Source of the DNA: Candidatus Nanohaloarchaea archaeon
GTDB taxonomy: Archaea; EX4484-52; GLR71
NCBI GenBank assembly: GCA_013138765.1
Contig: WTCB01000041.1
Coordinates: 1 to 36,126 of the forward strand
DNA: 36,126 bases
Reading direction: 5' to 3'
The notes below the pieces were generated by a model that was given only the letters and a program-made list of their open reading frames with translations, was not told where the DNA came from and made no database searches. The translations under genes and the position numbers were made by a program. This document shows, piece after piece, positions 3 through 28,223 of this stretch. Each line of letters opens with the position of its first letter. The first letter of the stretch is position 1.

Positions 3-146
3 TCTCAACTCGCACAAGACCTAAAAATAAGACGAGATTTCCTTGCAGGATTCCTTGAAGCCCTGCGCATAACCGGCAAACTTGAAGTGATTGATGTCGG
101 ACGTGCAAAAGTATACAGACCGATAAAAGGGGTGCAGAACATATGA
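3..146 (+). CDS. 3' end of an upstream gene (partial; last 47 codons), winged-helix-like C-terminus
   Basis: Frame 3 is open from the window edge: SQLAQDLKIRRDFLAGFLEALRITGKLEVIDVGRAKVYRPIKGVQNI*. The G-x-L/I-x(4)-G-x-x-K-x-Y pattern resembles the wing of wHTH regulators. The TGA stop (144-146) overlaps the ATG (143-145) of the giant gene as ATGA. No start codon is visible because the gene is truncated by the window. Confidence 0.4.
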   Translation, partial: SQLAQDLKIRRDFLAGFLEALRITGKLEVIDVGRAKVYRPIKGVQNI

Positions 147-3100: not shown

Positions 3101-6100
3101 GCAACAGACGGCTGGGCAAATTTCACAGATATCGAATCCTTATGGAACCTGACTATAGACGCAATAGACTTAGGATATCAAAATCAAAGTCACAACAACA
3201 TCTATACATACCCTAACACTGACACAACCTACACATTCACATTGAACCAAACAAAAATAACAATAAATGTAACAGATGACCTAGGTATTTTAGAAAATGC
3301 AAATGTATCGCTTACAGACCCATCAACTGGCGCAACCCTTAAAGATTATCTTGGTAATCCCTTAAGCGCACTCACAGATTCTTATGGAAGTGTCACATTT
3401 ACCAGATTCAATATATCCACATACAACATAACAATCAATGAATCCTCCCATGATTTCTACAACCAGACACTGACACTTACAATGGACTCAGACAATGATA
3501 TGCAGATAAATTTAGACACAACAAGAATGACAATTAATGTAATAGACACATACAGCACACCACTTGCAGACATCTATGTAAGTCTAAACAAGACCGATGG
3601 CACAGCAAACTTTACAGGATATACAAACAGCACAGGTACAGTAATCCTTGAAAATCAGACATTCCCACCTGGACTTTACAACCTGACAGTCAATGGAACA
3701 AGTCTTGGCTACAACTACACAGAAAAACAGATAGACATCTATGGTGGTTCACAAAACATTGAAAACATAATACTTGAAGAATACAGACTAAAAATCCAGG
3801 TCAACAGCAGTTATGATAACAGTGCAGCAAAATCAGTAAATGTAACAATTGAAGAGATACCACAGTCAAAAAACACAGATGAAAACGGCACTGCACAATT
3901 CAGAAACCTTGAAAACAAGACATATACATTAACGATAAACGGAACTCAAGTGGGCTACAATGACACAGTATTATCCATAAACGTTACAGGGGACATAACA
4001 GTTGAAATACTTCTTGAAGAAAACACATTTAAGATAGAAATAAAAGATGAAGAAGGAAATCCAGTAAGTGCAGGAATAGACGTAGTTCTTTGGAACCCTT
4101 ATCCAACACTAATTTACGATGATGCATTAGGCAACAATCTAGAAGATGAAACAACACCCACAAACAACAACATAACCTTCAGATTGATGCAATACGAATC
4201 TTCGCCCGGAAACAACATCACAATGTTGGCAGATGGAAGCGACCAAGGATACGGAACAAACCTGACAGATTACACAATATTTAATGGAACAAACGGTCCA
4301 AACACCACCATATTAAACATAACACAGCTTTTAGTCAATGTGACAAACTCAACAGGTGCACCAGTAAACGCCGCAAATGTAACACTATTAACCCTATCTG
4401 GAGGTTATGTCCAAAATGGTCTTGGAGGCGGTAGCCAACAAATGAATGGCACAACTGCCTCAGATGGAACAATAACATTCAAATGGCTATTGCCCGACAC
4501 ATACAATGTATCAATTGAAAAAAATGTAAGCGGAACAATAGTTAGAAACTCAACACTTGTAACAATTACTGCAGGCGAACACAAATATGTTCACATTGAT
4601 CCAAACAACACACTTATACCTTCCCTTAAAGGAACATATTACAATAGCATTCTTGAAAATGACACCTATGACCTCCAAATAAACACAACAGGTCTTGCAG
4701 GACCTGTAGAAAATATAACTGTCAAAGTATATGCAACAGGATACGATTACGACAATGCATACTGGTACAATTACGAAGCGACAGACAACAAGACAACCGA
4801 CGCAAACGGCATAATTGTAATATCAAATATACCCGCCGGAGTTTACGATATATTAATCGATGGAGAAAGTAAAGGTTATGGTATCACAAAAACAAAGATA
4901 CAATTCGGAAAACTGGTATTTTCTGAAGAAACAACAGGAGGCGACGGAATCATTGAGATTCAAATAGATGGACAACCGATAGAAAATGCAGTAGATAACG
5001 GATATTTCATAAGAGTGACCGCAGCAGGATACAAAACATACGACACTTTTGATAATGGTGAAGAAGGATTAAAAGGAACCTATTATGATAATATTAATTA
5101 TGACCAAACCATTTATCCAGGTTATACCCTAAACAACCGAACAGACATAGCACTCAACGGTATCATAAACCTTGTTGGACAGATAACAGACAGTTTAGCA
5201 GTAAATGCACAACCAATTTTCAAAAATATCGCAAACACATTCATAGAGCTCATAATGCATGGGACTGGAACAGTAAGATACACAGCATACACCGATTCAG
5301 ATGGAAATTATAGCATAAATATCAGCCCAGCATTACAAGGCGCAACAGACATTAATTCCCCCCTTACATACGATATTAAAACAACAAAAATTGGATACCG
5401 ATCAATAACTGAAGAAAAAGTAATGCCAAATGCAACTGCAATAATAACTCAAGATATAAAAATTCCAGGATCATCAACAATCAATGGAAGTGTATATACT
5501 TACGATAATAAAGAGATTTCAGGAATCATTGTAAAATACATAGATAACGCAACACTTTCAGAGATATACAAAACTACAACAGATACCAACGGCGAATATA
5601 ACATCACAATAAATCCAGATTATCAACCATACATATTATCATTTTCAGACCCCACATCAAACACAAAAGATTACACAAGCCCTGTATACACAGAACCGCA
5701 TACAAACGAAAAATATTATCTTTTAGGTTCAGAACAGGCAACTCTAAATATATACATAATTGACAATAATAATGTTGAAGTTGAAAATGCAGAAGTTACC
5801 ATCAACTCATTTATTGATGAAAAAATTGCAACCTTCACAACAGACAATAATGGTCGTGTAGACCTTTTCATAGATGGAATTGAATGGAACATTGGTGAAT
5901 ACACCATAACTACAAATGGAAAAACATTAGGATATGGATTAAACACAGAAACAAAAAACATAATACCTGGATACAACACACACACATCAATCATAAATAC
6001 TACCAGAATAAACTTAAGCATCTCAAGCAATCTGGGAAATCCTATATACAACACAACTGCATACCTTACAGGAGATATATTTATCTCTAAAAATATCGAG

Positions 6101-8077
6101 AACAATACCGCAATATTCAATAAGATTCTATCCGGCAATTATACTATCAATTTATCCAGCCCATATTTCAGCCAGTACACAACACCTATAGAAATAAACG
6201 ACAGCAACGCAGGAACACAAATACAAAAAAACATAATCCTAAACGAAAGCATGATTTCAATAAAGATAATAAACCAGACCGGCAACAATTTAGAAAACAT
6301 AAGCATATCAGTCAACGGACCAACATCATACACAGGAAAAACAGACACAGAAGGATGGTTAAACAAAACTCAAATACTTGAAGGAAATTACACAATAACT
6401 TTCACAAACACGACAGAATTCACAGATAACAATTATTTCATACCTCAAAACATCTCAACCACACAGACAATTGGTAACACAACCCATATTGAAGTCAAAA
6501 CAATTGAAAGAATAATAAATGTAACTGTAAACACATATGACTTAAAAGATATATACAACACATCAAGAACAAAAATTGCAGACAACACAATAACAATCAG
6601 TCTTACAAACGAAACAGGACTCACATCAAACAAGACTGGCGACCCCAACACAAAAATCACAAATGATAGTACTGCAAGATTCACAAGCATCTATGACGGT
6701 ATATACACAATAAACACAAGCAGTATCAACTATACATCAGATAATATAACAACATTTAATACAACATCAACAAATTTCAACACAGAACAGAACATATATC
6801 TAAAACAAAATTATATGGCTTACATAAACATAAATATACTCGCTGGTAGCACACCAATATCAAACGCACAAGCAACACTTTACTGGAATGCCACAACAAT
6901 GATCACAACAGGTACATCAGACCAAACAGGTCGTATAATGCTCCCTGTCAATGCATCCATATACAACTCAACGTTACACATAAAAATCTCAAAAACAGGT
7001 TATGTCACAAAAACAACAGCAGACTTCAACATAACTATTGGAGAAATCCACAACAATATTACATCACTTTCACTTGAGGTACCAACTTATACACCAAACA
7101 ATAATAAACCAAGCAGTTCATCACCATCCAGCATATTGCCACCTCCCACAACATCAGACAATGAGACCAATAATAACACAGAAAATAACACAGATACAAC
7201 ACAAGACATACCAACTACATATACTTATACAGATAACAAAGAAGAAATTGAACAGATAATCAAAAATAATATCAATATCTATAATCTCTTAGAACAATCA
7301 TTAGGTCAATTATCGGAAAATCAGATAGCAACAATTGCACAAAATACAGAAACATACGGAAAATATATAGAAATCAAACGAGATATAATTATTGACGAAA
7401 ATGGAATGAGCATTATAAGTCTAGACATACATTACACAGGAAATAAAATATTGAATAATTTTGCAATATATGATGCACTTCCAAAAAATATCCTGACAAC
7501 AGACAATATCAAATTTAATGATAACCTCGCAGAAATATCATTTGACAAAAACACAGATTCATACTTAATAGTATACCCAAACATAGAACCAAATACATAT
7601 TTACGAACAGAATACCAAACAGAGAGATACATCAGTTCGCAAGACACATCACTATTCTCAAAACCACAAATATTTGTAACCGACATAGACAAAGATCTAA
7701 CGATAACACAACCGAATAATACAATAAAAATAACAACCAAAAAAAGTATACTTGATTACTGGTGGTTACTGATTCTCGCAGCGATAGCTACGATTGCGGG
7801 AATTATTATAACAAGGCAGACTGGAAAACAATCCATAAATTATAGTTTCAAACCGATTGAAACAACTAACCCCATGAACCCCCCCGACACAGCACAAGGA
7901 AACACTATGTACAACTTTGAACAAAGAGAGAAAACACTCGCGACTTTGCCCAAACAAGTCGTAGACACAATAGAAAAAACAGAAGAAAAGATATCGCAAG
8001 ATATCAGAAAAGTAGCTCAGAATGAGGTAGCATACCTCGCAAAAACGCTGGAGAAAGAGAGATTTATAGTTGACTGA
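143..8077 (+). CDS. Giant (2,644 aa) cell-surface protein with tandem CarboxypepD_reg/prealbumin-like beta-sandwich repeats; putative heavily N-glycosylated adhesin or S-layer-associated protein
   Basis: Uninterrupted 7.9-kb ORF with a GGGGTG SD about 8 nt upstream. N-terminal Sec signal (hydrophobic core, IFA|AS). A recurring module along the whole length is 'G-x-V/I-x-D ... (T/S)D-x-x-G-x-(Y/F)-x-(I/L)', for example TDGNGQYSINI, TDSDGNYSINI, TDTNGEYNITI, TDNNGRVDLFI, TDENGTAQF. N-x-S/T sequons are very dense. A P/S/T/N-rich linker (PSSSSPSSILPPPTTSDNETNNNTENNTD) precedes a single TM helix (YWWLLILAAIATIAGIII, about 7757-7815) and a charged cytoplasmic tail of about 85 aa. Confidence 0.9.
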   Translation: MNKKNIAFTILALTTLAIIIPYIFAASNYIEGTVINLENGNSIGSVTIDIVNCTDQTQIFNTTTTYANGTFQIEYNNTWGQYLINASGNPSYIDRQFNNNTQCFENGTDLTLKLYPVGTSSLNIILKDSVNSRPIPNAIVKLSRSNYDSEITQINNSRCTDNICKTGTDGTILLIVPNPGTYNITITSEDYDNWNETLATFNESTELGKNRDYAKQLRGSGIISGKVTDYYNSKNVESATIELYRHDTNPYSGENLSFEGIYNYTTTTDADSKYTLYIPPSLILSTNYDISASHNDWTQTINYNGDPNTDGGWDSLNTNIDVHMKGTLRINGSITDCNNNEQEISLDIYITDKSGNGFDYYTHTDNGNFSIFVKNTTTGYAGYNITINGTQYDATTLANAQQEISECVDGSQKVNGTVKDSENNQNIENATIIINLDDGNSYNTITAVDGTFEMDIKDNVQFTIDIAKTGYTGLSSLTDTDGNYETINLTGAYNITGYVEDKEGSRRTSGAKIENVIITVLNQTTRAILYATATDGNGQYSINIPSNINYTLSWNKNFYNAKEKDYSAGEDNDGIIYLKGNTHIDGYILDESSFATDKNITADTTIDFADINGKQYTIIPQDGIFTIDMAIDNYNITVSKPGYDTKTETGFVSGSSITQNINLRGSLNITITTTDNFSNQSISLINLRLFDKDSGIIKYDSIATLDGTKNIFVNSENTYNIAVYHNNYLPLYESINTEDTTFEKEYRLVAKYETKITDAENNMPVENAKVQAYHYFNQTYHPMTLNETTLQVTVNCSGMLLDNINVTVTGPSYSNSQNTIAGTTTFAALPIETYTVEANGSTSGCSTKSTVIDITQGGTAYNTTILLNTTILMIHVTNPNKETIYPANVTYENSTGSNITMQGLNNQYYYENYIELGNYTTTVNESNHHNKTVLCNVTTSGEINFCNITLQPLPGNISIYLLNSTGNPITGAIINITNATASYEIIATDGWANFTDIESLWNLTIDAIDLGYQNQSHNNIYTYPNTDTTYTFTLNQTKITINVTDDLGILENANVSLTDPSTGATLKDYLGNPLSALTDSYGSVTFTRFNISTYNITINESSHDFYNQTLTLTMDSDNDMQINLDTTRMTINVIDTYSTPLADIYVSLNKTDGTANFTGYTNSTGTVILENQTFPPGLYNLTVNGTSLGYNYTEKQIDIYGGSQNIENIILEEYRLKIQVNSSYDNSAAKSVNVTIEEIPQSKNTDENGTAQFRNLENKTYTLTINGTQVGYNDTVLSINVTGDITVEILLEENTFKIEIKDEEGNPVSAGIDVVLWNPYPTLIYDDALGNNLEDETTPTNNNITFRLMQYESSPGNNITMLADGSDQGYGTNLTDYTIFNGTNGPNTTILNITQLLVNVTNSTGAPVNAANVTLLTLSGGYVQNGLGGGSQQMNGTTASDGTITFKWLLPDTYNVSIEKNVSGTIVRNSTLVTITAGEHKYVHIDPNNTLIPSLKGTYYNSILENDTYDLQINTTGLAGPVENITVKVYATGYDYDNAYWYNYEATDNKTTDANGIIVISNIPAGVYDILIDGESKGYGITKTKIQFGKLVFSEETTGGDGIIEIQIDGQPIENAVDNGYFIRVTAAGYKTYDTFDNGEEGLKGTYYDNINYDQTIYPGYTLNNRTDIALNGIINLVGQITDSLAVNAQPIFKNIANTFIELIMHGTGTVRYTAYTDSDGNYSINISPALQGATDINSPLTYDIKTTKIGYRSITEEKVMPNATAIITQDIKIPGSSTINGSVYTYDNKEISGIIVKYIDNATLSEIYKTTTDTNGEYNITINPDYQPYILSFSDPTSNTKDYTSPVYTEPHTNEKYYLLGSEQATLNIYIIDNNNVEVENAEVTINSFIDEKIATFTTDNNGRVDLFIDGIEWNIGEYTITTNGKTLGYGLNTETKNIIPGYNTHTSIINTTRINLSISSNLGNPIYNTTAYLTGDIFISKNIENNTAIFNKILSGNYTINLSSPYFSQYTTPIEINDSNAGTQIQKNIILNESMISIKIINQTGNNLENISISVNGPTSYTGKTDTEGWLNKTQILEGNYTITFTNTTEFTDNNYFIPQNISTTQTIGNTTHIEVKTIERIINVTVNTYDLKDIYNTSRTKIADNTITISLTNETGLTSNKTGDPNTKITNDSTARFTSIYDGIYTINTSSINYTSDNITTFNTTSTNFNTEQNIYLKQNYMAYININILAGSTPISNAQATLYWNATTMITTGTSDQTGRIMLPVNASIYNSTLHIKISKTGYVTKTTADFNITIGEIHNNITSLSLEVPTYTPNNNKPSSSSPSSILPPPTTSDNETNNNTENNTDTTQDIPTTYTYTDNKEEIEQIIKNNINIYNLLEQSLGQLSENQIATIAQNTETYGKYIEIKRDIIIDENGMSIISLDIHYTGNKILNNFAIYDALPKNILTTDNIKFNDNLAEISFDKNTDSYLIVYPNIEPNTYLRTEYQTERYISSQDTSLFSKPQIFVTDIDKDLTITQPNNTIKITTKKSILDYWWLLILAAIATIAGIIITRQTGKQSINYSFKPIETTNPMNPPDTAQGNTMYNFEQREKTLATLPKQVVDTIEKTEEKISQDIRKVAQNEVAYLAKTLEKERFIVD

Positions 8078-18818: not shown

Positions 18819-19334
18819 TTAACAATGTGTATCTGTACCAGATACCACATTACATCCATATGCTAAAACATAACCATTATTTAATATGAACTCAAATGTT
18901 TTTGTAGTGCCTACAACTGGAAGATCCTCAGAAGCAACAGTCAAAATACAGGTCTCACTGATTTCAAGAGCATCATTACTAGTACAAGTACCTGTAAATG
19001 TAGGTGTAATTTCAATGGCACCATCTACTTTATAATTAGTAGTACCTTCATCAATCGCCGCAACTACAAGAGTACCAGTATTCTTAATTATAAAATCAAG
19101 ATTTGCTGAAGTTATAGGATTCTCCTGAACCTGTAATATCTGTAAATCAGTCCGCATCTTATCAGATTGTGCACTCACCTGATCCTCAATAGCAGCAGTC
19201 TGTGTATCAGTCATATCCATTATGAACTCATATGCAAGACCTGCAGCAGCAACAGTCATCATAAGAAGAAGAACCATTGCAATTACTGGAGTAATTCCCT
19301 TTCTGTTAACAATTTTTTTTGACATAATTATCAC
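18819..19334 (-). CDS. Archaeal type IV pilin (Pilin_N/DUF1628-type N-terminus); candidate major filament subunit
   Basis: MIIMSKKIVNRKG|ITPVIAMVLLLMMTVAAAGLAY closely matches the archaeal pilin N-terminal consensus (R/K-G-x-S/T-P-V-I-x-x-x-L-L/M-x-x-x-T-V). It is a small beta-rich body with 4 Cys, is first in the pilin series, and is followed by T-tracts. Confidence 0.8.
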   Translation of the reverse strand: MIIMSKKIVNRKGITPVIAMVLLLMMTVAAAGLAYEFIMDMTDTQTAAIEDQVSAQSDKMRTDLQILQVQENPITSANLDFIIKNTGTLVVAAIDEGTTNYKVDGAIEITPTFTGTCTSNDALEISETCILTVASEDLPVVGTTKTFEFILNNGYVLAYGCNVVSGTDTHC

Positions 19335-20287: not shown

Positions 20288-21946
20288 TTACATCATAGGA
20301 GGCATACCGCCGCCGCCCATTGGAGGCATACCTTCAGGCATTCCGCCGCCGCCAAGCTTTGATGCAGAGATTACATCATCAATCCTGAGGATCATTTCAG
20401 CAGCTTCAGATGCAGATTTTATTGCCTGTGTCTTTATCTTGACAGGTTCCAAAACACCCTGTTTTAGCATATCTTGTGTATTATTTGTAAATACATCAAT
20501 ACCTGCCCATTTATTGCCTTTGTCATGAGCAGAGCGAAGTTCAACAAGTATATTGATCGGGTCAATTCCAGCATTCTCAGCAAGAGTCTTAGGTATTACC
20601 TCAACAGCATTAGCAAAAGCAACTATGGCAAGCTGTTCACGTCCACCGACAGAATCACTATACTTTCTTAACTCTTTTGCAATTTCAGCTTCAGGAGAAC
20701 CACCACCTGCAACAACTTTGCCTACCTCAATAGATGCAGAGACACCGCCAAGAGCATCTTTCATAGCTCTTTCAATTTCATCAACCACATGATCAGTTCC
20801 GCCACGGACAAGTATTGAGACTGATTTAGGATCCTTACATTTTCGTACAAATATCATCTCACTTCCGGATATTTTCTTCTCTTCAACAATACCTGCAGAA
20901 CCAAGATCATCCGCATTAATTTCATCAAGATTAGATATTATGCTTCCACCTGTAGCTTTTGATAAGGCATCCATATCAGATTTCTTGACTCGTCTTAAGA
21001 CCATTATGCCCGCTTTAGCAAGATAATACTGTGCCATGTCATCAACACCTTTTTGACAGAATACAACATTTGTCTTTGATGCAATTATCTTTTCAACCAT
21101 CTTTTTAAGCATCTTTTCTTCCTGTTCTAAAAACGCATTCATCTGAGAAGGGTCAGTAATCCTTATCTGCGCATCACTTTCCAGCTCTTTTACTTCAATA
21201 GCACTATTGATAAGAGCAATCTTAGCATTTTCAATCTTTTTTGGCATACCTGAATGAACCACTTCCTTATCAATTATAAGACCGCTGATAAGTGTTGTAT
21301 CATCTGTAGACCCGCCAGCTTTTTTCTCAAGCTTTATCTGATCAAGATCAATGACTGTTTTACCTTCATCTTCAACAGCCACCTGAATTATAGATTCAAC
21401 TGCAATTTTTGCTAAAAACTCTTTTGCAGATTCACTGGATTTACCAGTCATTGAAGTAAGTGCAATCTTTGTAAGAAAATCCTTATCCTTAATATCAACA
21501 GCAATTGCAATCTTATCCAAAATTTCAAGACTTTTCTCTTTTGCAAGCCTGTAACCCTGAGCAATACTTGTAGGATGAATCTTTTGTTCAAGAAGTGTTT
21601 CTGACTGTTTGAGGAGTTCACCAGTAAGAACTGCAGCAGTAGTTGTACCATCTCCTACTTCTGCATCTTGTGCCTTTGCAACTTCAACAACCATCTTTGC
21701 AGCCGGATGTGTTATCTCCATCTCTTCAAGTATAGTCACACCATCATTTGTGATCACGACCTCACCTAAAGAATCCGTAAGCATCTTATCCATACCTTTA
21801 GGTCCAAGTGTCGTCCTGACTGCATCAGCCACAATTTTTGCAGCCGCAATGTTTGCCATCTGCGCATTCCTTCCGCTCTCTCTAAAAGTGCCTTCAGGCA
21901 CAACAATTATAGGTTGTCCACCAATCTGTCCATTCATATTTTTCAT
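20288..21946 (-). CDS. ths: Thermosome subunit (group II chaperonin, CCT/TCP-1 family)
   Basis: Hallmarks are [26 protein letters not shown] (nucleotide binding) and VAGGGSPE. The C-terminal tail is [21 protein letters not shown]. The length is 552 aa. Confidence 0.95.
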
Positions 21947-22026: not shown

Positions 22027-22086
22027 ATGATTATGTGAGTATACAGAAAAAATTAAAAAACAAATCAAAAATCTAAAAAAACATTT

Positions 22087-22140
22087 AATTTATAATTTAT
22101 TTTATAAATCATTAAAACTATTTTAATAAATGATTTTTAA
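22087..22140. repeat. Left copy of a 54-bp imperfect direct repeat flanking the IS
   Basis: AATTTATAAtttattTTATAAATCATTAAAActaTTTTAATAAatgaTTTTTAA aligns with 24270-24323 at 46/54 positions by manual alignment. Weaker similarity extends further left (ACAAAT...ATCTAAAAAA). Confidence 0.6.
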
Positions 22141-24218
22141 CCTAACTTTCTCACCAAAATCACTATTTTTTAACACCTCTAAAAATTAATACCCTCTACT
22201 GTTATTCTTTTTATTTGATTATATCTATGATTTTGAAAATTTAAAAATATCTGTTACGACCAATAATTAATGTGGTTGAGATTACACTGATGTATTTATT
22301 GTATCTTATTTTTAAACGAAAAGCATATATACTATTACGACCAATTAAATATTATGCTGAAGTATAACTGGTACCTTAAAAAACATCACCATAATTACTA
22401 TAGTCTTGTAGAACCATACAGAGAGAATGGTAAAAACAGACATCGAATAATATATTATTATGGACAATTGACGGATGAAGAACTGCAGATAATAACACAG
22501 GCTTTAGAAGTCATGAAAAAACGCAAAGCAACAACAAAAATTGAAGACATAATCTTTGAGAATTACTGGCAGTATTTAAATATTGCATTTATGAACAGTA
22601 TCTGGAACCAATGGGATCTTTCTAAAATATTCATGCAATCCAAAAATAAGATTGTGCAGACATCGGAAATTGCAAAAATATTAACGATATATCGCTGTTT
22701 AGCACCCGGGAGCTATATCTCTGCAATAGAATGGAATAAAAAAACGGCATTAAATCGCATTTTAGATATAGATAACCGACATATAAACAAATCAAAAATA
22801 TTCCGTGAACTCGATGAAATTGAGAATAGAAAAATAGATATAGAAAATCATCTATACAAAATATTAAATGAACGTGATGCGGACTTGCAATTTGTATTTT
22901 ACGATCTCACTGATTCATATTTTGAGGGTAAAAAACGCGAATTGGCGACACCTGGAATTACTAAAAACAACGGTTTTCAAAAAAAAAGAATTGTTCTGTC
23001 ACTCTTGGTAAATTCAAAAGGATATCCATTCGCATGGGATATACTTGATGATTACACAGCAGATGTCAATACAATTAAAGACTTATCGACAAAGTGGATA
23101 TCACAGTTCAAATTCAATGAAAAAGAAATAATATTGGTTTTTGATAGAGGTATGGTTTCAGATGAGAATCTTAAACATCTTGAAAATGAAAAATATGTTT
23201 ACATAACTGCATTAGATAAAAATCAGATACCATATCTAAAAAATGCCAACATTGAACGTTTCAAGCCACTCAACGAAGAAAATATGATTGAACACATAAC
23301 AAAAATAGGATTTAAAAAATATGATGATAAAACATATTTTGAAAACATAGGAATAATTGAGGGTAGACGTTATGTCATGATATTTAATCCTAAAATGTTT
23401 GTGGATGAAATAGAATCTCACGATAAACTTATGGTACGGGCAAAAGCATATCTTGATGAAGAAAATAAAGCTTTGACTGATGCGAAAAATAGCAGGAATG
23501 AAGCTAAAACAAGAAATAAGATAGACATGCAATTAAAAGTGTTAAAGGCTAAGAAATTTGTGGATTATGATCTTGAACCTCTGACGATAAAGACAGATGG
23601 TAAAGAAGTCAATAGTTTTCAGATAGTGAAAAAAGATACTGAAAAAACTAAAAAAGCGATTGAAAAGGCAAGAAAAACATATGGTTTGTGGGTTCTTGTT
23701 ACAAATAATATTAACGATGAAAAAGACATGAAGGTTCTTACCGAAGAAAGATTAATTTCTGCATACAGAGATAAGAATCAGATAGAAGATGCGTTCAAAG
23801 ATGTGAAATCGTTCATAAAAATACAGCCGTTCAATGTTTGGACACAAAATCATGTGAAGGCACATTATACGATATGTGTGCTTTCATATCTATTGAATAT
23901 TACAATTACTGACCAATTGAAAAAGATAGAACTCGACATAAAAAGTTCGCAGAAAGTGTATAGCACACTACAGGATGGCATAATCGGCAAGATCACTATT
24001 CAAAATACAGGATTTGAATCTTTAAAACTGATTAAACTTAAAAGTCAGCAAAAAAAGATTGTTGAGTTGTTTCAGTGCGAAACAATTATAGATAAAAAAT
24101 ATTTGAAATCGATTGGAATTAATTATTGAAATGATACATTACGACCAAAAACGAGCAGATTTTATACCTGCACTACTCCGATAGATACTGTTTTTAAAAA
24201 TTGAGTGGGAAACTCGGG
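22141..24218 (+). mobile_element. IS1634-family insertion sequence (about 2.08 kb; boundaries approximate)
   Basis: A single DDE transposase ORF. The candidate terminal inverted repeats are CCTAACTTTCTCACCAAAAT (22141-22160) and the reverse complement of 24199-24218 (CCCGAGTTTCCCACTCAATT), matching at 13/20 by hand. The left end abuts the direct repeat. Confidence 0.65.
22354..24129 (+). CDS. IS1634-family (IS4-like) DDE transposase
   Basis: The N-terminus YYSLVEPYRENGKNRHRIIYYYGQL is typical of IS1634 transposases. Candidate DDE residues lie in VFYDLTDSYFEG, ILVFDRGMVSDENL and YRDKNQIEDAFKDVKSF (the Y-R...E-x6-K signature). Confidence 0.9.
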   Translation: MLKYNWYLKKHHHNYYSLVEPYRENGKNRHRIIYYYGQLTDEELQIITQALEVMKKRKATTKIEDIIFENYWQYLNIAFMNSIWNQWDLSKIFMQSKNKIVQTSEIAKILTIYRCLAPGSYISAIEWNKKTALNRILDIDNRHINKSKIFRELDEIENRKIDIENHLYKILNERDADLQFVFYDLTDSYFEGKKRELATPGITKNNGFQKKRIVLSLLVNSKGYPFAWDILDDYTADVNTIKDLSTKWISQFKFNEKEIILVFDRGMVSDENLKHLENEKYVYITALDKNQIPYLKNANIERFKPLNEENMIEHITKIGFKKYDDKTYFENIGIIEGRRYVMIFNPKMFVDEIESHDKLMVRAKAYLDEENKALTDAKNSRNEAKTRNKIDMQLKVLKAKKFVDYDLEPLTIKTDGKEVNSFQIVKKDTEKTKKAIEKARKTYGLWVLVTNNINDEKDMKVLTEERLISAYRDKNQIEDAFKDVKSFIKIQPFNVWTQNHVKAHYTICVLSYLLNITITDQLKKIELDIKSSQKVYSTLQDGIIGKITIQNTGFESLKLIKLKSQQKKIVELFQCETIIDKKYLKSIGINY

Positions 24219-24269
24219 CTAAAAGCTATTTTTATAGACAAATATCTAAAAAATATATCAAACAAGTTC

Positions 24270-24323
24270 AATTTATAACTTAATTTATAAATCATTAAAA
24301 TCCTTTTAATAACTCGTTTTTAA
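24270..24323. repeat. Right copy of the 54-bp imperfect direct repeat flanking the IS
   Basis: See 22087-22140. It is separated from the proposed right IS end (24218) by about 50 bp that align only weakly with sequence left of 22087. Confidence 0.6.
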
Positions 24324-24408
24324 TAAAGTTTTAAAAAGCTATCAACGTTAAGTAGTATCAATGATTAAACAATCAAATGAATTCAAACTAAAATAAAAGT
24401 GAAACCTT

Positions 24409-24708
24409 ATGACAACAGAGATTAAAAAAATAGAAATTCCAACAACGTTAGATGAAGCTAAATCATATTTAAGAGACGAATATGATAAACTTAAAGATAT
24501 AAAAAACACTCTTGAACGTAAATATAACTCAGGTCTAACATATGATACGCCCAATGAAGCGTGGTGGGGGGCACAATACATACCAAAAATAAATCAAATA
24601 GGGGACGAAATAAGTTATATAAAAGAACTTTGTAGTAAAACAGAATCAGAAATTATAGCAGATGTTAAAAATTATATCAACTCACAAATAGAAGAACATA
24701 ACACATAA
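24409..24708 (+). CDS. Hypothetical small helical protein (99 aa)
   Basis: ATG start with a partial SD (AGTGA) 6 nt upstream. Charged, helical-looking sequence with no recognised family. The structured repeat follows 19 nt after the stop. Confidence 0.5.
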   Translation: MTTEIKKIEIPTTLDEAKSYLRDEYDKLKDIKNTLERKYNSGLTYDTPNEAWWGAQYIPKINQIGDEISYIKELCSKTESEIIADVKNYINSQIEEHNT

Positions 24709-24727
24709 AGAAATAAAACAATAAAAG

Positions 24728-24858
24728 AATTGCCTAAAATCCACTATCCCATGGAGCAAAGCTCCGGGGTATTTCGTGGATTTACAAGACGGCAATTCCT
24801 ACCTTTCTTGATGGTGATAAACCGATGCAGAGCATCGGGGTATTAAACCCATCAAGAA
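24728..24858. repeat. Composite structured inverted-repeat element (two nested-hairpin modules); candidate ncRNA, MITE-like or recombination-site element
   Basis: Module 1 has the outer stems AATTGCC (24728-34)/GGCAATT (24791-97) and AAATCCAC (24737-44)/GTGGATTT (24776-83), which enclose the hairpin GGAGC-AAA-GCTCC (24753-65). Module 2 has a 10-bp outer stem, TTCTTGATGG (24805-14)/CCATCAAGAA (24849-58), enclosing CCGATGC-AGA-GCATCGG (24822-38). In both modules the inner hairpin is followed by GGGGTATT. Confidence 0.6.
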
Positions 24859-24933
24859 ATAAATGAAACAACCCCTCCATCACTTAGAGATAAAAAGTAT
24901 AGTAAAACTATCGAAGACGGAACCGTAACTAAA

Positions 24934-25137
24934 GTGTATAATGAATCTACAGCAAATGAAATGTATTCATACGAGATAGATGAAAACGACCGCATAGAAA
25001 AACCACTAATTAAAGTCACTTATTTTTCTGGTGCACACATACCTCAAAAAGATAAACACTTTTCAGAGTTATCACAAACAATACAAGATATATTTAATAA
25101 CATCGATGGATTCGATTGGATCCAAAAAACTCAGTAG
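24934..25137 (+). CDS. Hypothetical small protein (67 aa; start uncertain)
   Basis: GTG start in the track. The frame is open back to 24847 with no in-frame ATG, and the first in-frame ATG gives MYSYEIDEN.... No recognised family. Confidence 0.3.
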   Translation: MYNESTANEMYSYEIDENDRIEKPLIKVTYFSGAHIPQKDKHFSELSQTIQDIFNNIDGFDWIQKTQ

Positions 25138-25219
25138 TGTATTAAAAAATAATGAAAATAATATTCAAAACTAAATAGAGAAACAATAAATGAAATTAAA
25201 ATAAAAAAAGGTGAAAAAT

Positions 25220-26101
25220 ATGAGTGAAACTATTTATAGTCGTGTTTTTGGAGAAACCCCTGTTGTAGAAATCAACAGCCCACGTGTTCAAGCAACTGAC
25301 ACAAAAGCTGCATGGGATAATTGTGCCATCAAATATTATAATGGTACAATACAAGATGTCGATATAACATCTTCAAGAGATAACATAATGGAAAAATTAA
25401 AAGGAACAAATATAATGAATCATGGTGGTATCTCAAATGCATCATCAATGTTTCGACAGTTTTATGGTGCAAATGAACTTACGTTGCAAGAATTTGAAAA
25501 AGCAATGAACTCAAAACAGACACTACCCTTCGTATTTGATTATGCAGATGCAGTTAAAGATTCAATTATTGCTTCAGGTGAAAACAATTTTGAAACTGTG
25601 CACAATTATAATCTTAAGAATTATCTTAAAATGAATATTTTCGAAGCACAACAAATTAGCAAAACAGAAGAATCAAAAGTTGCAGGCATACAACCTCTTA
25701 ATTGGAAACTGGTTGATACATCCACACGAGGTGGAATTAATGAACAGACGGAAATCTCACTTTTAAGCCAACCAGCACCATATTCATCTGGATTTGACCC
25801 AGGACTAATATATATAGGTAAATCCTTATGGGACGAAACAAAAATGGAAATAACAAATGTTGGTGGCAAAGGACAAGCAACCGGTGCACAAGACTTAGGG
25901 ATATATGGTATTTCTGAAATAGACATTGGTGGTAAAAAACACACACTTGAAGGTATAAACTATCTAACAGAGTATGGAATTAATGCTTTTAATCAAGCAG
26001 AAGAAAAGGGATATAGTAGTGTTGAAATAATAACTCAGACTTTGATTGAAAATAGGATACCAAGTGCAATTGTACCATTACATAAAATATTCATTAAATA
26101 A
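25220..26101 (+). CDS. Hypothetical protein (about 293 aa), soluble, no recognised family
   Basis: The ATG at 25220 is preceded by AGGTGA (25209-25214) plus 5 nt, so the track GTG at 25211 lies inside the SD. No TM helix or signal peptide. The stop is followed after 1 nt by the short copy of the structured repeat. Confidence 0.65.
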   Translation: MSETIYSRVFGETPVVEINSPRVQATDTKAAWDNCAIKYYNGTIQDVDITSSRDNIMEKLKGTNIMNHGGISNASSMFRQFYGANELTLQEFEKAMNSKQTLPFVFDYADAVKDSIIASGENNFETVHNYNLKNYLKMNIFEAQQISKTEESKVAGIQPLNWKLVDTSTRGGINEQTEISLLSQPAPYSSGFDPGLIYIGKSLWDETKMEITNVGGKGQATGAQDLGIYGISEIDIGGKKHTLEGINYLTEYGINAFNQAEEKGYSSVEIITQTLIENRIPSAIVPLHKIFIK

Positions 26102-26102
26102 A

Positions 26103-26153
26103 AAATTGCCTAAAATCCACCACTCATCGAAGCAAAGCTCCAGAGTGTTAAAC
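26103..26153. repeat. Short (deletion-derivative-like) copy of the structured element
   Basis: AATTGCCTAAAATCCACcactcatcGAAGCAAAGCTCCagaGTGTTAAACC corresponds to the 5' part of module 1 (24728-24765) joined to the 3' tail of module 2 (GGGGTATTAAACC, 24837-24849). Confidence 0.6.
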
Positions 26154-26176
26154 CAAAAATAAAAGAGATTATAATT

Positions 26177-26971
26177 ATGGATGCCATTTACAAAAGCTTA
26201 AAAGGAAAAACCGTTATTGTAGTCGGAACAGGCAGCTTAGGTGGTGCCATAGTAAATGATTTTTTAGAACAGGGTTGTAAAGTTTATGGAATAGACAATA
26301 ACCAAGACACACTTGATAATTTATCCAATAAATATTCTGAATATGGATATCTATTTCAACCACAACTTGCAGATGTCACAGAAGTTCAAGACTTTGAAAC
26401 AATCCTTAAAACGATAGGAGATAATGAAGAAACCCCAATACATTCATTTGTATATACAGCAGGACTAGGTGTCTCAAGCGAACCAGACAGTTTCAAAGAC
26501 CGACTTCCCGAAGAATTATTCCAACTAAACGTATTCGGACTTATGTATGGAATAAGAGCCATCTCTGAATATCTTGACAAAGGGTCATCAATAATAGCAA
26601 CTGGTAGCTTAAATGCCACACGCCCAGAACACGGAATGTCAATGTATGATACAACAAAAGCAGCAATACACCAATACATGAAAACCGCCTCATTACACTT
26701 CGGTCCAAAAGGCATTCGTGTAAATGTAGTTGCTCCAGGTTACATACACACAACACAGACAGAAACCGAAATGGAAGACTCAATTACAAAAAAAAGAATA
26801 GAAGACTCAACGACATTAGGATATATAGGTGAACCTAAAGACGTATCATCAGTTGTTATATTTCTTGCATCTGATGCATCTAACTACCTAACTGGTGAAG
26901 TAATCCATGTAGATGGTGGCTTAGCAGATGCCCAATATCCAGCCATAAAAAAACAGATAGACAACATATAA
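26177..26971 (+). CDS. Short-chain dehydrogenase/reductase (classical SDR, FabG-like)
   Basis: Rossmann motif VVGTGSLGGAIV (TGxxxGxG), NNAG-like YTAGLG, catalytic S...YDTTK (YxxxK) and NVVAPGYIHT. Confidence 0.85.
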   Translation: MDAIYKSLKGKTVIVVGTGSLGGAIVNDFLEQGCKVYGIDNNQDTLDNLSNKYSEYGYLFQPQLADVTEVQDFETILKTIGDNEETPIHSFVYTAGLGVSSEPDSFKDRLPEELFQLNVFGLMYGIRAISEYLDKGSSIIATGSLNATRPEHGMSMYDTTKAAIHQYMKTASLHFGPKGIRVNVVAPGYIHTTQTETEMEDSITKKRIEDSTTLGYIGEPKDVSSVVIFLASDASNYLTGEVIHVDGGLADAQYPAIKKQIDNI

Positions 26972-26992
26972 AATAAAAAAAGTACAAGAGTT

Positions 26993-28171
26993 ATGATATT
27001 TATGGAAAATGAAACCGGTTTTGGATCTGATTATTATATCATCTCTCAAATTGAAAACGTTGAAAAAATCGCTAAACAAAAAGGATTAGACCTATATTCC
27101 ACCCCCATGATAATTGGTTTTGATGTTCAGGGACCTGTCGTAAAACTTACAGATGCTTCCTTTGAACCATGGTCACAAATAAAATCAGCCATACTGGATT
27201 TCAACAGAAATAAATCTATCGAAAAAGCCATAATTTCTGGATGGGATTTAAAAAGTCTTGAAAACTTCAGAGATACTAACTTAGGAGACTTACCTATAAG
27301 CATTATAGGTGAACTTGGTTCAATTATAAACTACGAGAATCATATATACGAAATAAATCCAATGAAAGATACATTTGAATTCTATAATATGGAACTTGAT
27401 ATATTCAAAAAAGCTGCAGAAAAAGGATTAAAAATAGCCATACAAGGAAATGCTTCAAAAAACGTAAACTGTTTCTATTTTGAAGGAGATGGTATTGAAA
27501 GAGGAGATATAAGAAACCATTTCCTTGTAAAAGATACAGACATAACTACAAACGATATATATCAATCAATAATAACATCCCCTTTTAATACTGATAACTT
27601 CGAATATAATAATAATAAGGATAAAATCTGTTTTGAGTCCACCATAGAAAATATAGAAATTATTGATTATGTTCTACGCCAAGTATACACATTACAATCA
27701 GTAAGACTCGCAGAAGAAAACGAAAACAAAATATCAATAAGAAGAGACAATGATGATAATATTAATTTCACAATAGATGATATGGTAACATTTTCAAAAG
27801 AAGCCATACCCGACAGCTGGGAAATTGAACCAAATTCAGATTACTGTATCGATGTAATCCATAAAAATAACGGTTACAGACCAACAAAAGAAACAGCAGC
27901 ATATGAACTTGGAAAACTACGATTCGGCGAACAATCTTTCATAATTACAAACATAGGAGACAAAAAAGGTGATGTATTAACTGGACCAAACACAATATTT
28001 TTCGCACAAATTGGTAGTCCCGCAGAAAATTACTGTATAGACGAAAATTTACCATATATACCTGTAGTCAATGCAATCGATTATTTCCACATAATGGCAC
28101 AAATCACAAATACAACAATAAAAAATAGAATTCTATCAGAAATACCCCAAATACAACCAATATATGTCTAA
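26993..28171 (+). CDS. Hypothetical protein (392 aa); weak HAD-IIB-like motif order with a degenerate motif I
   Basis: MIIGFDVQGPV resembles HAD motif I (DxDGT) but has Q at the D+2 position. ITNIGDKKGDVLTG resembles motif IV (GDxxxD). No confident family assignment. Confidence 0.55.
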   Translation: MIFMENETGFGSDYYIISQIENVEKIAKQKGLDLYSTPMIIGFDVQGPVVKLTDASFEPWSQIKSAILDFNRNKSIEKAIISGWDLKSLENFRDTNLGDLPISIIGELGSIINYENHIYEINPMKDTFEFYNMELDIFKKAAEKGLKIAIQGNASKNVNCFYFEGDGIERGDIRNHFLVKDTDITTNDIYQSIITSPFNTDNFEYNNNKDKICFESTIENIEIIDYVLRQVYTLQSVRLAEENENKISIRRDNDDNINFTIDDMVTFSKEAIPDSWEIEPNSDYCIDVIHKNNGYRPTKETAAYELGKLRFGEQSFIITNIGDKKGDVLTGPNTIFFAQIGSPAENYCIDENLPYIPVVNAIDYFHIMAQITNTTIKNRILSEIPQIQPIYV

Positions 28172-28223
28172 AAATAATTCAAACACACACAATTAATAGA
28201 GACTCCAAAAAGCATAAATAAAT

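What the first reader, a model, noticed from the sequence alone, without database searches (positions are those of the whole stretch)
24728..24858. 131-bp composite element forming two nested-hairpin structures in an otherwise AT-rich spacer
Module 1 has a 7-bp outer stem (AATTGCC/GGCAATT) and an 8-bp stem (AAATCCAC/GTGGATTT). These enclose the hairpin GGAGC-AAA-GCTCC, which is extendable by C-G pairs from CCC/GGGG. Module 2 has a perfect 10-bp outer stem (TTCTTGATGG/CCATCAAGAA) enclosing a perfect 7-bp hairpin, CCGATGC-AGA-GCATCGG. Both modules have the same layout: outer stem, internal loop of about 7 nt, GC-rich hairpin with a 3-nt purine loop, GGGGTATT, outer stem. This looks like an internal duplication. 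The element starts 19 nt after a stop codon and is much more GC-rich and structured than its surroundings. It could be a structured sRNA or 3'-UTR element, a MITE-like repeat, or a cassette-boundary recombination site. It is not a tRNA, and I see no canonical C/D boxes (no CUGA D box).
Basis: seen in the sequence. Interest (0 to 1): 0.65.

Follow-up and report, generated by a model that had tools for sequence, protein, structure and literature searches.

The report
Small hairpin transposon in DPANN archaeon
The two-hairpin stretch is real, but it is one copy of a small gene-less jumping DNA element that occurs many times in a group of tiny uncultivated sediment archaea; it is an ordinary kind of selfish repeat, newly seen in this lineage.

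Summary
Positions 24727-24859 fold into two long hairpins (RNA MFE -60.8 kcal/mol, z = -8.5), the strongest fold in the 36-kb window.

It is not a unique structured RNA gene. It is a dispersed repeat with sharp ends at 24720/24863. Five further independent copies or remnants lie between unrelated genes, in both orientations, in DPANN/Aenigmatarchaeota MAGs. In eight sediment, cold-seep and volcano metagenomes it appears as many short, high-depth contigs with different flanks. In the source metagenome its summed depth is about 15-30x the flank depth.

At one locus (L010/L014), natural populations carry both filled and empty alleles. The empty site has one ATAAA; the filled site has a 138-nt insert with ATAAA on both sides. 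This shows it is mobile.

The element has:
- no terminal inverted repeats;
- two homologous core hairpins (loop AGA, followed by GGGGTATTA) in direct orientation near its ends;
- an invariant 5-nt target;
- 61-70-nt one-hairpin deletion derivatives, one at 26098-26163.

This matches palindrome-associated transposable elements (PATEs), the non-autonomous relatives of IS200/IS605. No cognate transposase was found, so that assignment is inferred.

There is no Rfam or tRNA match, no covariation among copies, no integrase and no RNA data. It is a new member of a known kind, of modest interest.

The parts
24721..24725 (+). Left ATAAA: the target pentanucleotide (TTTAT on the other strand). It is conserved at the left edge of all copies.
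   Evidence: Present in 7 of 8 copies (ATTAA in L006). The empty-site alleles keep exactly one ATAAA.
24726..24863 (+). The inserted mobile unit: 138 nt, made of one variable base, module 1, a 5-nt linker, module 2 and the terminal ATAAA.
   Evidence: Contigs from eight metagenomes begin and end matching at 24720 and 24863, with unrelated flanks. Filled and empty alleles at the L010 locus differ by 138 nt.
24727..24798 (+). Module 1 (left-end hairpin): outer stem 24727-24734/24791-24798, middle stem 24736-24744/24776-24784 (9 bp in the consensus), and core hairpin 24753-24765.
   Evidence: MFE and consensus structures. The window copy departs from the family consensus at 24752 (T, consensus C), 24759 (A, consensus G), 24774 (T, consensus A) and 24784 (A, consensus T).
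24753..24774 (+). Core 1: hairpin GGAGC-AAA-GCTCC (family loop AGA) plus the box GGGGTATTT (family GGGGTATTA).
   Evidence: It is a direct repeat of core 2, with 21 of 25 aligned positions identical in the consensus. G-C/A-T in core 1 become A-T/T-A in core 2, two compensatory pairs.
24804..24859 (+). Module 2 (right-end hairpin): 11-bp outer stem 24804-24814/24849-24859 enclosing core hairpin 2.
   Evidence: It also occurs in metagenome contigs without module 1, or with other sequence in front of it.
24815..24819 (+). Hypervariable pentamer on the 5' side of the internal loop of module 2: TGATA here, TTAAG, TTGTT or TTATA in other copies.
   Evidence: The rest of the element is 90-99% conserved. 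The reason for the variability is unexplained.
24822..24845 (+). Core 2: hairpin CCGATGC-AGA-GCATCGG plus the box GGGGTATTA.
   Evidence: Invariant in the three full copies. It is a direct repeat of core 1.
24859..24863 (+). Right-terminal ATAAA. It is either the element's own end motif or the second copy of a 5-bp target duplication.
26098..26163 (+). Second, one-hairpin ('terminal-only') copy: ATAAA, the 5' arm of module 1, one decayed core hairpin, GTGTTAAACC, a tail and ATAAA. The stop codon of ORF 25211-26101 lies inside its left ATAAA.
   Evidence: Repeat family D4; sequence; orthologous copy in L031 at 5870-5817; aligned with the other short forms in L006 and L036.

Best explanation
The stretch is one full-length copy of a small, gene-less, mobile DNA element found in Aenigmatarchaeota-like DPANN archaea.

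Anatomy:
- The mobile unit is 138 nt (24726-24863).
- It sits immediately 3' of the pentanucleotide ATAAA and itself ends in ATAAA.
- It has no terminal inverted repeats.
- It carries two homologous core hairpins, each a GC-rich stem with loop AGA followed by GGGGTATTA. They lie in the same orientation, one near each end, and each is wrapped in its own outer stem.

This is the anatomy of a palindrome-associated transposable element (PATE), the non-autonomous derivative of IS200/IS605-type insertion sequences.

Inferred mechanism: a Y1 (HUH) TnpA transposase encoded elsewhere in the genome recognises the two hairpins on one DNA strand while it is single-stranded. It cuts next to the ATAAA/TTTAT motifs, excises the strand as a circle, and re-inserts it 3' of another ATAAA/TTTAT ('peel and paste').

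Recombination between the two directly repeated cores gives the 61-70-nt one-hairpin derivatives, such as the one at 26098-26163.

Shown here: the fold, the multicopy dispersed distribution, the sharp ends, the filled and empty alleles, the invariant ATAAA, the absence of TIRs, the direct repeat of the cores and the deletion derivatives.

Inferred only: the transposase family, the strand used, and any effect on neighbouring genes.
For: 1. Fold. z = -8.5 as RNA and -10.0 as ssDNA. It is the top outlier in the window.

2. Multicopy and dispersed.
- A second, short copy lies in the window.
- True copies occur in DPANN MAGs: L013 (archaeon GLR71), L014 and L010 (Aenigmatarchaeota RS_11_38 and CSMAG_1734), L006 (KA24), L009 and L036 (GLR71) and L031. 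They are 83-92% identical and sit between unrelated genes: PurP-like, DeoC, SecF, SMC, HEPN, pseudouridine synthase and an IS66 transposase.
- In metagenomes X1-X9 only 24720-24863 is covered, by many short contigs in both orientations with differing flanks.
- In X1 the flank depth is about 11 and the summed element depth 47-346. At least 9 distinct left and at least 8 distinct right junction contigs are seen.

3. Mobility. At the L010/L014 locus, contigs in X3, X4, X8 and X9 skip the element.
- Empty allele: ...GGAAAAATAAAAAAGAAATG...
- Filled allele: ...GGGAAAAAATAAAG[GAATTGCC...CATCAAGAAATAAA]AAAGAAATG...
- The net difference is 138 nt.
- L036 carries a short copy in a spacer that is empty in the orthologous L038.
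- An X6 allele of the L013 locus lacks the element.

4. PATE-type features.
- No TIR: local alignment score 4 against 4.5 +/- 1.0 for shuffles.
- The cores are direct repeats, 21 of 25 aligned positions identical, with two compensatory stem changes.
- ATAAA is at the left edge of 7 of 8 copies (ATTAA in L006); at the right end it is ATAAA in the full copies and in the window/L031 short copy, and CTAAA in two short forms.
- The one-hairpin forms are what repeat-mediated core deletion would produce. The same process is described for Haloquadratum PATEs such as HqIRS46, a 22-bp direct repeat of the two palindromes that collapses to a 52-bp terminal-only form (PMC3119063).
- Internal passenger segments vary: some copies have a 52-nt two-hairpin insert exactly at the module 1/module 2 junction.
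- TTTAT, the reverse complement of ATAAA, is a documented IS605-family target/TAM in Geobacillus, where PATE-like elements share ends with IS elements and are predicted to be moved in trans by TnpA (PMC10055086).
- IS200/IS605 is the most widespread IS family in archaea (PMC13343696).
Against: No cognate full-length IS was found: no tnpA or tnpB flanked by the same ends. None lies in the window, in about 190 kb of related loci, or in viral contigs.

The ATAAA on both sides is equally what a 5-bp target-site duplication at a preferred target would look like.

The hairpins are much longer and more elaborate than typical IS200/IS605 end palindromes. They have outer stems of 8-11 bp that reach almost to the termini.

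The spacing from the termini to the cores, about 20-26 nt on both sides, does not show the clear 'longer on the left' asymmetry reported for IS608 and for haloarchaeal PATEs.

The active strand could not be determined.
Confidence: 0.6

Rival explanations
1. A conventional MITE moved by a DDE transposase, for example one of the IS1634 or IS66 elements seen next to two copies. It would insert into a strongly preferred ATAAA and duplicate it as a 5-bp target-site duplication.
For: ATAAA flanks both sides of every full copy, and the empty site has one ATAAA. An IS1634-family transposase lies 600 bp upstream in the window, and an IS66 transposase lies next to the L006 copy.
Against: There are no terminal inverted repeats at all. 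No similarity was seen between the element ends and the IS1634 region. The 'duplication' has the same sequence in almost every copy, which is unusual for DDE elements. The two recognition-like motifs are in direct, not inverted, orientation.
Confidence: 0.13
2. A functional structured RNA or cis-acting hairpin module: a 3'-UTR stabiliser, a terminator or insulator between tightly packed genes, or a small RNA or guide-RNA scaffold. It would be maintained by selection and merely be repeated in the genome.
For: The fold is very stable on both strands. Most copies lie within about 50 nt of a stop codon. Copies are 90-99% conserved between organisms whose thermosomes are only about 88% identical. 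Several one-sided changes keep G-U pairs on the + strand. PATEs are reported often to encode omega-RNAs (PMC10055086).
Against: None of the 49 predicted pairs shows a compensatory change among the three full copies. Many metagenome variants break stems without compensation. Orientation relative to flanking genes is mixed. The orthologous short copies (window and L031) have diverged about as fast as the flanking DNA. There is no Rfam hit and no RNA run to test expression. This reading does not explain the filled and empty alleles with an ATAAA target.
Confidence: 0.1
3. A non-autonomous element moved by a site-specific recombinase of the IS110/IS1111 or IS607 type. The shared ATAAA would be the crossover core, and the two internal-loop hairpins would resemble a bridge-RNA-like fold.
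For: There are no TIRs, an invariant short core sequence lies at both junctions, and there are two stem-loops each with an internal loop.
Against: No such recombinase lies near any copy. By inspection, the variable loop pentamer does not match the flanks of the three full copies (sequences). No RNA family matches.
Confidence: 0.05
4. An integron-type attC recombination site that marks gene-cassette boundaries in the variable island between the thermosome and phosphoglucomutase genes.
For: The element and its short copy each follow an ORF of unknown function in a variable island. That island is absent from close relatives, and each of its ORFs is preceded by a repeated AT-rich leader. GCCTAAA in the 5' arm is one mismatch from the attC R'' consensus RYYYAAC (sequence).
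Against: No integrase lies in the window or in the related islands. There is no matching R' site (GTTRRRY) on the 3' side. Other copies are solitary, in either orientation, between housekeeping genes. The window-specific segment relative to L031 does not begin or end at the element. The filled and empty alleles differ by the element alone, not by a cassette.
Confidence: 0.02

Closest known systems
PATEs (palindrome-associated transposable elements) of Haloquadratum walsbyi and other haloarchaea, e.g. HqIRS46 (PMC3119063); PATE-like elements of Geobacillus stearothermophilus (PMC10055086)
   Same: [quoted passage not shown] No inverted terminal repeats. Near-terminal palindromes that resemble each other and lie in direct orientation. 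A short conserved targeting oligonucleotide at the 5' edge. High identity among copies. One-palindrome 'terminal-only' derivatives formed by deletion between the two palindromes. Other small repeats inserted inside some copies. A TTTAT/ATAAA-type target.
   Different: The host lineage is DPANN Aenigmatarchaeota, not haloarchaea or Firmicutes. No sequence similarity to those elements was tested or is expected. The palindromes here are embedded in additional 8-11-bp outer stems, so each half is a 56-72-nt compound hairpin. The same pentanucleotide lies at both edges. The cognate IS200/IS605 transposon has not been identified.
IS200/IS605 insertion sequences (IS608, ISDra2, ISGst2)
   Same: The end architecture matches: subterminal hairpins on one strand and no TIR. 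Insertion is next to a fixed 4-5-nt motif. TTTAT is a known target/TAM for ISGst2.
   Different: This element has no tnpA or tnpB. The spacing between hairpin and terminus differs from what I recall for IS608 (19 and 10 nt, from memory). Guide-cleavage-site pairing could not be established.
[quoted passage not shown]
   Same: Small, non-coding, multicopy and intergenic. It folds into long hairpins and shows presence/absence polymorphism.
   Different: The defining terminal inverted repeats are absent. TIR-based catalogues would therefore not detect this element.
REP/BIME elements (with RAYT transposases) and BOX elements of bacteria
   Same: Modular, mosaic combinations of palindromic units in intergenic regions, often just after genes. 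They are thought to be moved by an HUH Y1 enzyme.
   Different: Here a defined 138-nt unit with fixed ends inserts at a fixed pentanucleotide. The palindromes are direct, not alternating inverted. To my knowledge RAYTs are not known in archaea.

Membership tests
PATE (IS200/IS605-derived non-autonomous element) | Too short to encode a transposase, and multicopy | tested here: met
   138-144 nt. The only long open frame has no homologue.
PATE (IS200/IS605-derived non-autonomous element) | No terminal inverted repeats | tested here: met
   Ends aligned against each other score no better than shuffles.
PATE (IS200/IS605-derived non-autonomous element) | Near-terminal palindromes at both ends, similar to each other, on the same strand | tested here: met
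   The core hairpins plus GGGGTATTA are direct repeats, 21 of 25 aligned positions identical, lying 20-26 nt from the termini.
PATE (IS200/IS605-derived non-autonomous element) | Insertion next to a fixed 4-6-nt targeting sequence, without a true target duplication | tested here: inconclusive
   ATAAA is present at the left edge of 7 of 8 copies, and once in the empty alleles. The right end also reads ATAAA, so a 5-bp duplication cannot be told apart from the element's own end motif.
PATE (IS200/IS605-derived non-autonomous element) | Ends shared with a full-length IS200/IS605 element (tnpA and/or tnpB) in the same or a related genome | tested here: inconclusive
   None was found in the window or in about 190 kb of related loci. 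Whole genomes of the lineage could not be searched.
MITE | Terminal inverted repeats related to those of a DDE transposon | tested here: not met
   No similarity to the neighbouring IS1634 region.
Integron attC site | R''(RYYYAAC)...R'(GTTRRRY) core sites in a single imperfect palindrome; arrays in one orientation next to intI | tested here: not met
   GCCTAAA is a near match to R'', but there is no R' partner. There is no integrase. Copies are solitary and in both orientations. The attC covariance models themselves were not available.
Archaeal H/ACA guide RNA | ACA/ANA box directly 3' of the lower stem, and a K-turn or K-loop in the upper stem | tested here: not met
   The ACA at 24784-24786 is peculiar to the window copy; all other copies read TCA. 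No GA-GA K-turn motif was seen by inspection. No Rfam hit.
C/D-box sRNA, tRNA or any Rfam 15 family | A match to the family model or its boxes | tested here: not met
   ARAGORN found 0 genes. cmscan found 0 at gathering threshold over the whole window. In E-value mode it gave only a chance lncRNA hit outside the element. The putative C-box-like TGATA lies in the hypervariable pentamer.
REP/REPIN with RAYT | 20-40-nt palindromes with a conserved 5' tetranucleotide, mostly as inverted pairs, and a RAYT gene flanked by REPs | tested here: inconclusive
   The palindromes are direct, not inverted, and the unit has fixed ends. The presence of a RAYT-like gene in the genome was not testable.

The most novel reading that the evidence does not exclude
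The element is more than a selfish repeat. It may be an RNA-producing PATE whose two-hairpin transcript acts in trans, for example as an omega-RNA-like scaffold that programmes a TnpB-type nuclease using flanking sequence as guide. Alternatively it may have been co-opted as a hairpin insulator or terminator between the tightly packed genes of these reduced DPANN genomes. A further possibility is that it is moved by an enzyme family not yet linked to hairpin-ended elements in archaea, if the lineage turns out to lack IS200-type TnpA.
Probability: 0.1. Interest if true: 0.6.

Novelty: new member of a known kind. Interest (0 to 1): 0.3.

Why it matters
It gives a precisely bounded, apparently recently active mobile element for Aenigmatarchaeota-like DPANN archaea. 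These organisms have very small genomes and their mobile elements are poorly charted. TIR-based MITE finders would miss this element.

Practical consequences:
- Such repeats break short-read assemblies. The source-run contig stops inside this element.
- They mark variable genomic islands.
- They can serve as lineage markers in cold-seep and sediment metagenomes.

If the cognate TnpA or TnpB is found, the element's TTTAT/ATAAA motif and hairpins would define the target and TAM and the ends of a new archaeal IS200/IS605 clade.

Otherwise it is an ordinary selfish repeat, not a new RNA class.

Tried and rejected
tRNA/tmRNA scan: none found.

Rfam: nothing at gathering threshold over the whole window, and only a chance hit in E-value mode on 24500-25100.

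H/ACA reading: I considered it because of ACA after the middle stem. I rejected it because every other copy reads TCA and there is no K-turn.

C/D-box reading: rejected. There is no CUGA, and the TGATA lies in the hypervariable pentamer.

Collection scans with the 18-mer GAATTGCCTAAAATCCAC:
- Genome contigs gave 15 hits. Five were real, all in DPANN MAGs; ten were chance.
- JGI metagenome contigs gave 14 hits, all chance.
- Viral contigs gave none with two patterns.
- Plasmid and phage BLAST gave none.

Retrieving copies through spurious ORF calls: I searched with the 40-aa open frame that runs through the element and got no candidates.

RNA runs: none listed.

Covariance model R1, built from the three full copies, found no further or more divergent copies in 190 kb of related loci.

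RNAalifold: 0 compensatory pairs.

Empty site for the window's own copy: not found in X1, X2, X3 or X10. The close relative L031 differs by a larger segment (window 22141-25202) whose edges are not at the element.

TIR search and comparison with the neighbouring IS1634 region: negative.

Bridge-RNA-like reading: the loop pentamer shows no complementarity to the flanks in the three full copies (inspection).

Pairing of a guide segment next to the hairpins with ATAAA/TTTAT, in the manner of IS608: I looked at this only by eye and from memory of IS608. It was inconclusive and I do not use it.

Full report
**1. The observation**

As RNA, the + strand folds into two adjacent compound hairpins with MFE -60.8 kcal/mol. 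Dinucleotide shuffles give -29.3 +/- 3.7, so z = -8.5 and 0 of 200 shuffles fold as well. The minus strand gives z = -6.4. The family consensus folded as single-stranded DNA gives z = -10.0. In a scan of 1440 windows of 150 nt across the 36-kb window this is the strongest fold: -60.8 against a mean of -17.9 (sd 6.7), with the next independent window at -41.0. GC is 41% against about 30% locally.

**2. The host**

The window encodes a thermosome subunit (20288-21946, minus strand), archaellin/pilin-like and type IV secretion genes, a 2644-aa surface protein and sugar-nucleotide enzymes, at 31-38% GC. The closest thermosomes (88-94% identity) come from MAGs labelled DPANN, Aenigmarchaeota or 'archaeon'. 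The DNA comes from a marine-sediment metagenome. The host is therefore an Aenigmatarchaeota-like DPANN archaeon.

**3. It is a dispersed repeat, not a unique locus**

- A second, shorter copy lies 1.2 kb downstream at 26098-26163.
- In cold-seep and volcano metagenomes that hold nothing else of this region, 24720-24863 is covered by dozens of short contigs. They lie in both orientations, their flanks disagree, and their summed depth is far above that of single-copy contigs.
- In the source run X1 the flanks have depth about 11 and the element bins 47-346. At least 9 different left and at least 8 different right junction contigs are seen. X1 also contains a second related organism, GLR71-like, so 'about 15-30 copies per genome' is only an order of magnitude.
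- The source-run contig breaks inside the element, as repeats make assemblies do.
- A scan of 185,579 species genomes with an 18-mer from the 5' arm gave 15 hits, about the chance expectation. Five were real, and all five were in DPANN MAGs. They are a full copy in L013 (archaeon GLR71, 92%), a full copy in L014 and L010 (Aenigmatarchaeota RS_11_38 and CSMAG_1734, the same locus, 91%), a short form in L006 (KA24), and a 25-28-nt fragment in L009 (GLR71).
- Loci fetched around related thermosomes added a short form in L036 (GLR71) and the orthologue of the window's short copy in L031.
- The neighbouring genes are unrelated from copy to copy: a PurP-like enzyme, DeoC aldolase, SecF, SMC, a HEPN/nucleotidyltransferase pair, pseudouridine synthase, an IS66 transposase, and here an ORF of unknown function.
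- Orientation relative to those genes is mixed. All copies are intergenic, and most lie within about 50 nt of a stop codon.

**4. It is mobile**

I laid the L010 locus on four cold-seep runs and found contigs that skip the element. Reconstructed:
- Empty alleles read ...GAAAGGTTCTTGGAAAAATAAAAAAGAAATGCCC...
- The filled allele reads ...GAAAGTTCTGGGAAAAAATAAAG[GAATTGCC...CATCAAGAAATAAA]AAAGAAATGCCC...

The net difference is 138 nt. The empty site has one ATAAA and the filled site has one on each side.

Two more comparisons agree:
- L036 has a roughly 70-nt short form directly after a stop codon, in a spacer that is short and empty in the orthologous L038.
- An X6 allele of the L013 locus lacks the element, though there the deletion is larger and imprecise.

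In the window the mobile unit is therefore 24726-24863. The target ATAAA lies at 24721-25.

**5. Anatomy that bears on mechanism**

- The ends are not inverted repeats. The first 25 nt aligned against the reverse complement of the last 25 nt score 4, and shuffles score 4.5 +/- 1.0.
- The two modules share a core in direct orientation. In the consensus these are ACGGA-GCAGAGCTCCGGGGTATTA and ACCGATGCAGAGCATCGGGGTATTA, with 21 of 25 aligned positions identical. The loop AGA and the 3' box GGGGTATTA are the same.
- ATAAA stands at the left edge of 7 of 8 copies (ATTAA in L006), and ATAAA stands at the right end (CTAAA in two short forms).
- The short forms consist of the 5' arm of module 1, one core hairpin, GGTATTAAACC and the tail of module 2. 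That is what deletion between the two directly repeated cores would leave.
- Some copies carry extra sequence exactly at the module 1/module 2 junction. One example is a 52-nt insert with two small A/T-flanked hairpins, found in either orientation. Other contigs show core 2 plus the tail preceded by long unrelated sequence.
- One pentamer, 24815-24819 on the 5' side of module 2's internal loop, is hypervariable, while the rest is 90-99% conserved. I cannot explain this.
- The window copy carries four private changes relative to the family consensus: 24752 (T, consensus C), 24759 (A, consensus G), 24774 (T, consensus A) and 24784 (A, consensus T). Three of them (24752, 24759, 24784) bear on the fold or on the H/ACA reading: the loop reads AAA instead of AGA, the ACA at 24784-86 is TCA elsewhere, and one base pair of the middle stem is lost.

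**6. Interpretation**

The element is gene-less and multicopy. It has no TIRs. It has similar palindromes near both ends in the same orientation, a fixed short targeting sequence, and one-palindrome derivatives made by repeat-mediated core deletion. Other small repeats are nested inside some copies.

These are the defining properties of PATEs, as described for Haloquadratum walsbyi. There PATEs were shown to share their near-terminal palindromes with IS605-type transposons. HqIRS46, a 22-bp direct repeat of the two palindromes, collapses to a 52-bp terminal-only form (PMC3119063).

PATE-like elements sharing ends with IS elements, and predicted to be mobilised in trans by TnpA, are also described in Geobacillus stearothermophilus. 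There TTTAT, the reverse complement of ATAAA, is the transposon-adjacent motif of ISGst2 (PMC10055086). IS200/IS605 is the most widespread IS family in archaea (PMC13343696).

The most likely mechanism is therefore single-strand 'peel-and-paste' transposition by a Y1 TnpA supplied in trans. The enzyme would recognise the two core hairpins and cut next to ATAAA/TTTAT.

This step is inferred. No cognate tnpA- or tnpB-bearing element with these ends was found in the sequence available to me. ATAAA on both sides is also what a 5-bp target duplication would look like. I could not decide which strand is active. A T-rich TTTAT target would favour the minus strand. A few G-U-preserving substitutions weakly favour the plus strand.

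**7. Rivals**

- **DDE-type MITE:** disfavoured by the complete lack of TIRs and by the invariant 'duplication'.
- **Selected structured RNA or 3'-UTR module:** no covariation (0 of 49 pairs), uncompensated stem-breaking variants, mixed orientation, no Rfam match, and orthologous short copies that have diverged like neutral DNA. Expression could not be tested. An added RNA role, for example as an omega-RNA, is not excluded.
- **attC/integron reading:** fails on integrase, core sites, orientation and context.

On context, the element does lie in a variable island (about 22141-28200). That island is absent from relatives in which phosphoglucomutase abuts the thermosome gene (L032, L033). It is present in a different form in L031. 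The island's variable segment does not begin or end at the element.

**8. Verdict**

The structure is real and striking, and its explanation is ordinary. It is a new family, in DPANN archaea, of a known kind of non-autonomous hairpin-ended transposable element. Interest is modest. The open points are the identity of the mobilising enzyme, the active strand, the hypervariable pentamer, and whether the element is transcribed.

Noticed in passing
window 22077-22140 and 24260-24341; L031 7690-7618 and 7059-6980: An AT-rich repeat of about 64-80 nt, 81-96% identical between copies, containing its own palindrome (AAATCATTAAAA..TTTTAATAAATGATTT). It precedes successive ORFs of the variable island like a reusable promoter or leader module. 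In the window one copy precedes the IS1634 element and the other precedes ORF99. In L031 the copies precede ORF139 and the ORF296 homologue.
   Followed up: partly
window about 22141-28200: A variable genomic island lies between the thermosome and phosphoglucomutase genes. It holds IS1634, ORF99, the element, ORF296, the short element, an SDR and ORF392. These two genes are adjacent in L032 and L033 (93% thermosome identity). L034 and L038 also lack the island, L031 has a variant of it, and GLR71 (L036) has a different island with methyltransferases.
   Followed up: partly
window 22354-24129 (+), with 22254-22263, 22335-22344 and 24139-24148: An IS1634-family transposase (591 aa). The decamer TTACGACCAA occurs twice upstream and once just downstream of the gene, possibly as subterminal binding sites. 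No clear terminal inverted repeats were found. The element is single-copy in the source run, but parts of the gene are very abundant in cold-seep run X3.
   Followed up: partly
junction at window 24803/24804 (seen only in metagenome contigs of X1, X5, X6, X8): Some copies carry a 52-nt insert exactly between the two modules, in either orientation: CCAAAAAATGCTCCGCATTTTGGGACCCAAAAACGCATTCGCGTTTTTTAGG. It forms two small hairpins, each flanked by an A-run and a T-run. It may be a second tiny mobile repeat that targets this element.
   Followed up: partly
window 24815-24819: This pentamer is hypervariable between copies (TGATA, TTAAG, TTGTT, TTATA), while the surrounding 130 nt are nearly invariant. 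No complementarity to the flanks or to the opposite loop strand was found.
   Followed up: partly
L009 2546-2519 (minus strand): A 25-28-nt fragment of the element's 5' arm (ATAAAAGAATTGCCTAAAATCCAC) fills most of the 43-nt spacer between the convergent SMC and HEPN genes of MAG GLR71. It looks like a remnant of a former insertion.
   Followed up: no
window 143-8077 (+): A 2644-aa ORF with many CarboxypepD_reg / Ig-like / macroglobulin-type repeats. It is a giant surface protein of the kind common in DPANN genomes.
   Followed up: no
window 19101-19250: The second-strongest local fold in the window (-41 kcal/mol for 150 nt). It lies within the archaellin/pilin-like gene 18819-19334. I did not examine it.
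   Followed up: no
L010 versus L014: Two MAGs deposited under different phylum labels (Nanohaloarchaea and Aenigmatarchaeota) share the same locus, the same element insertion and near-identical flanks. At least one of the taxonomic labels is doubtful.
   Followed up: no
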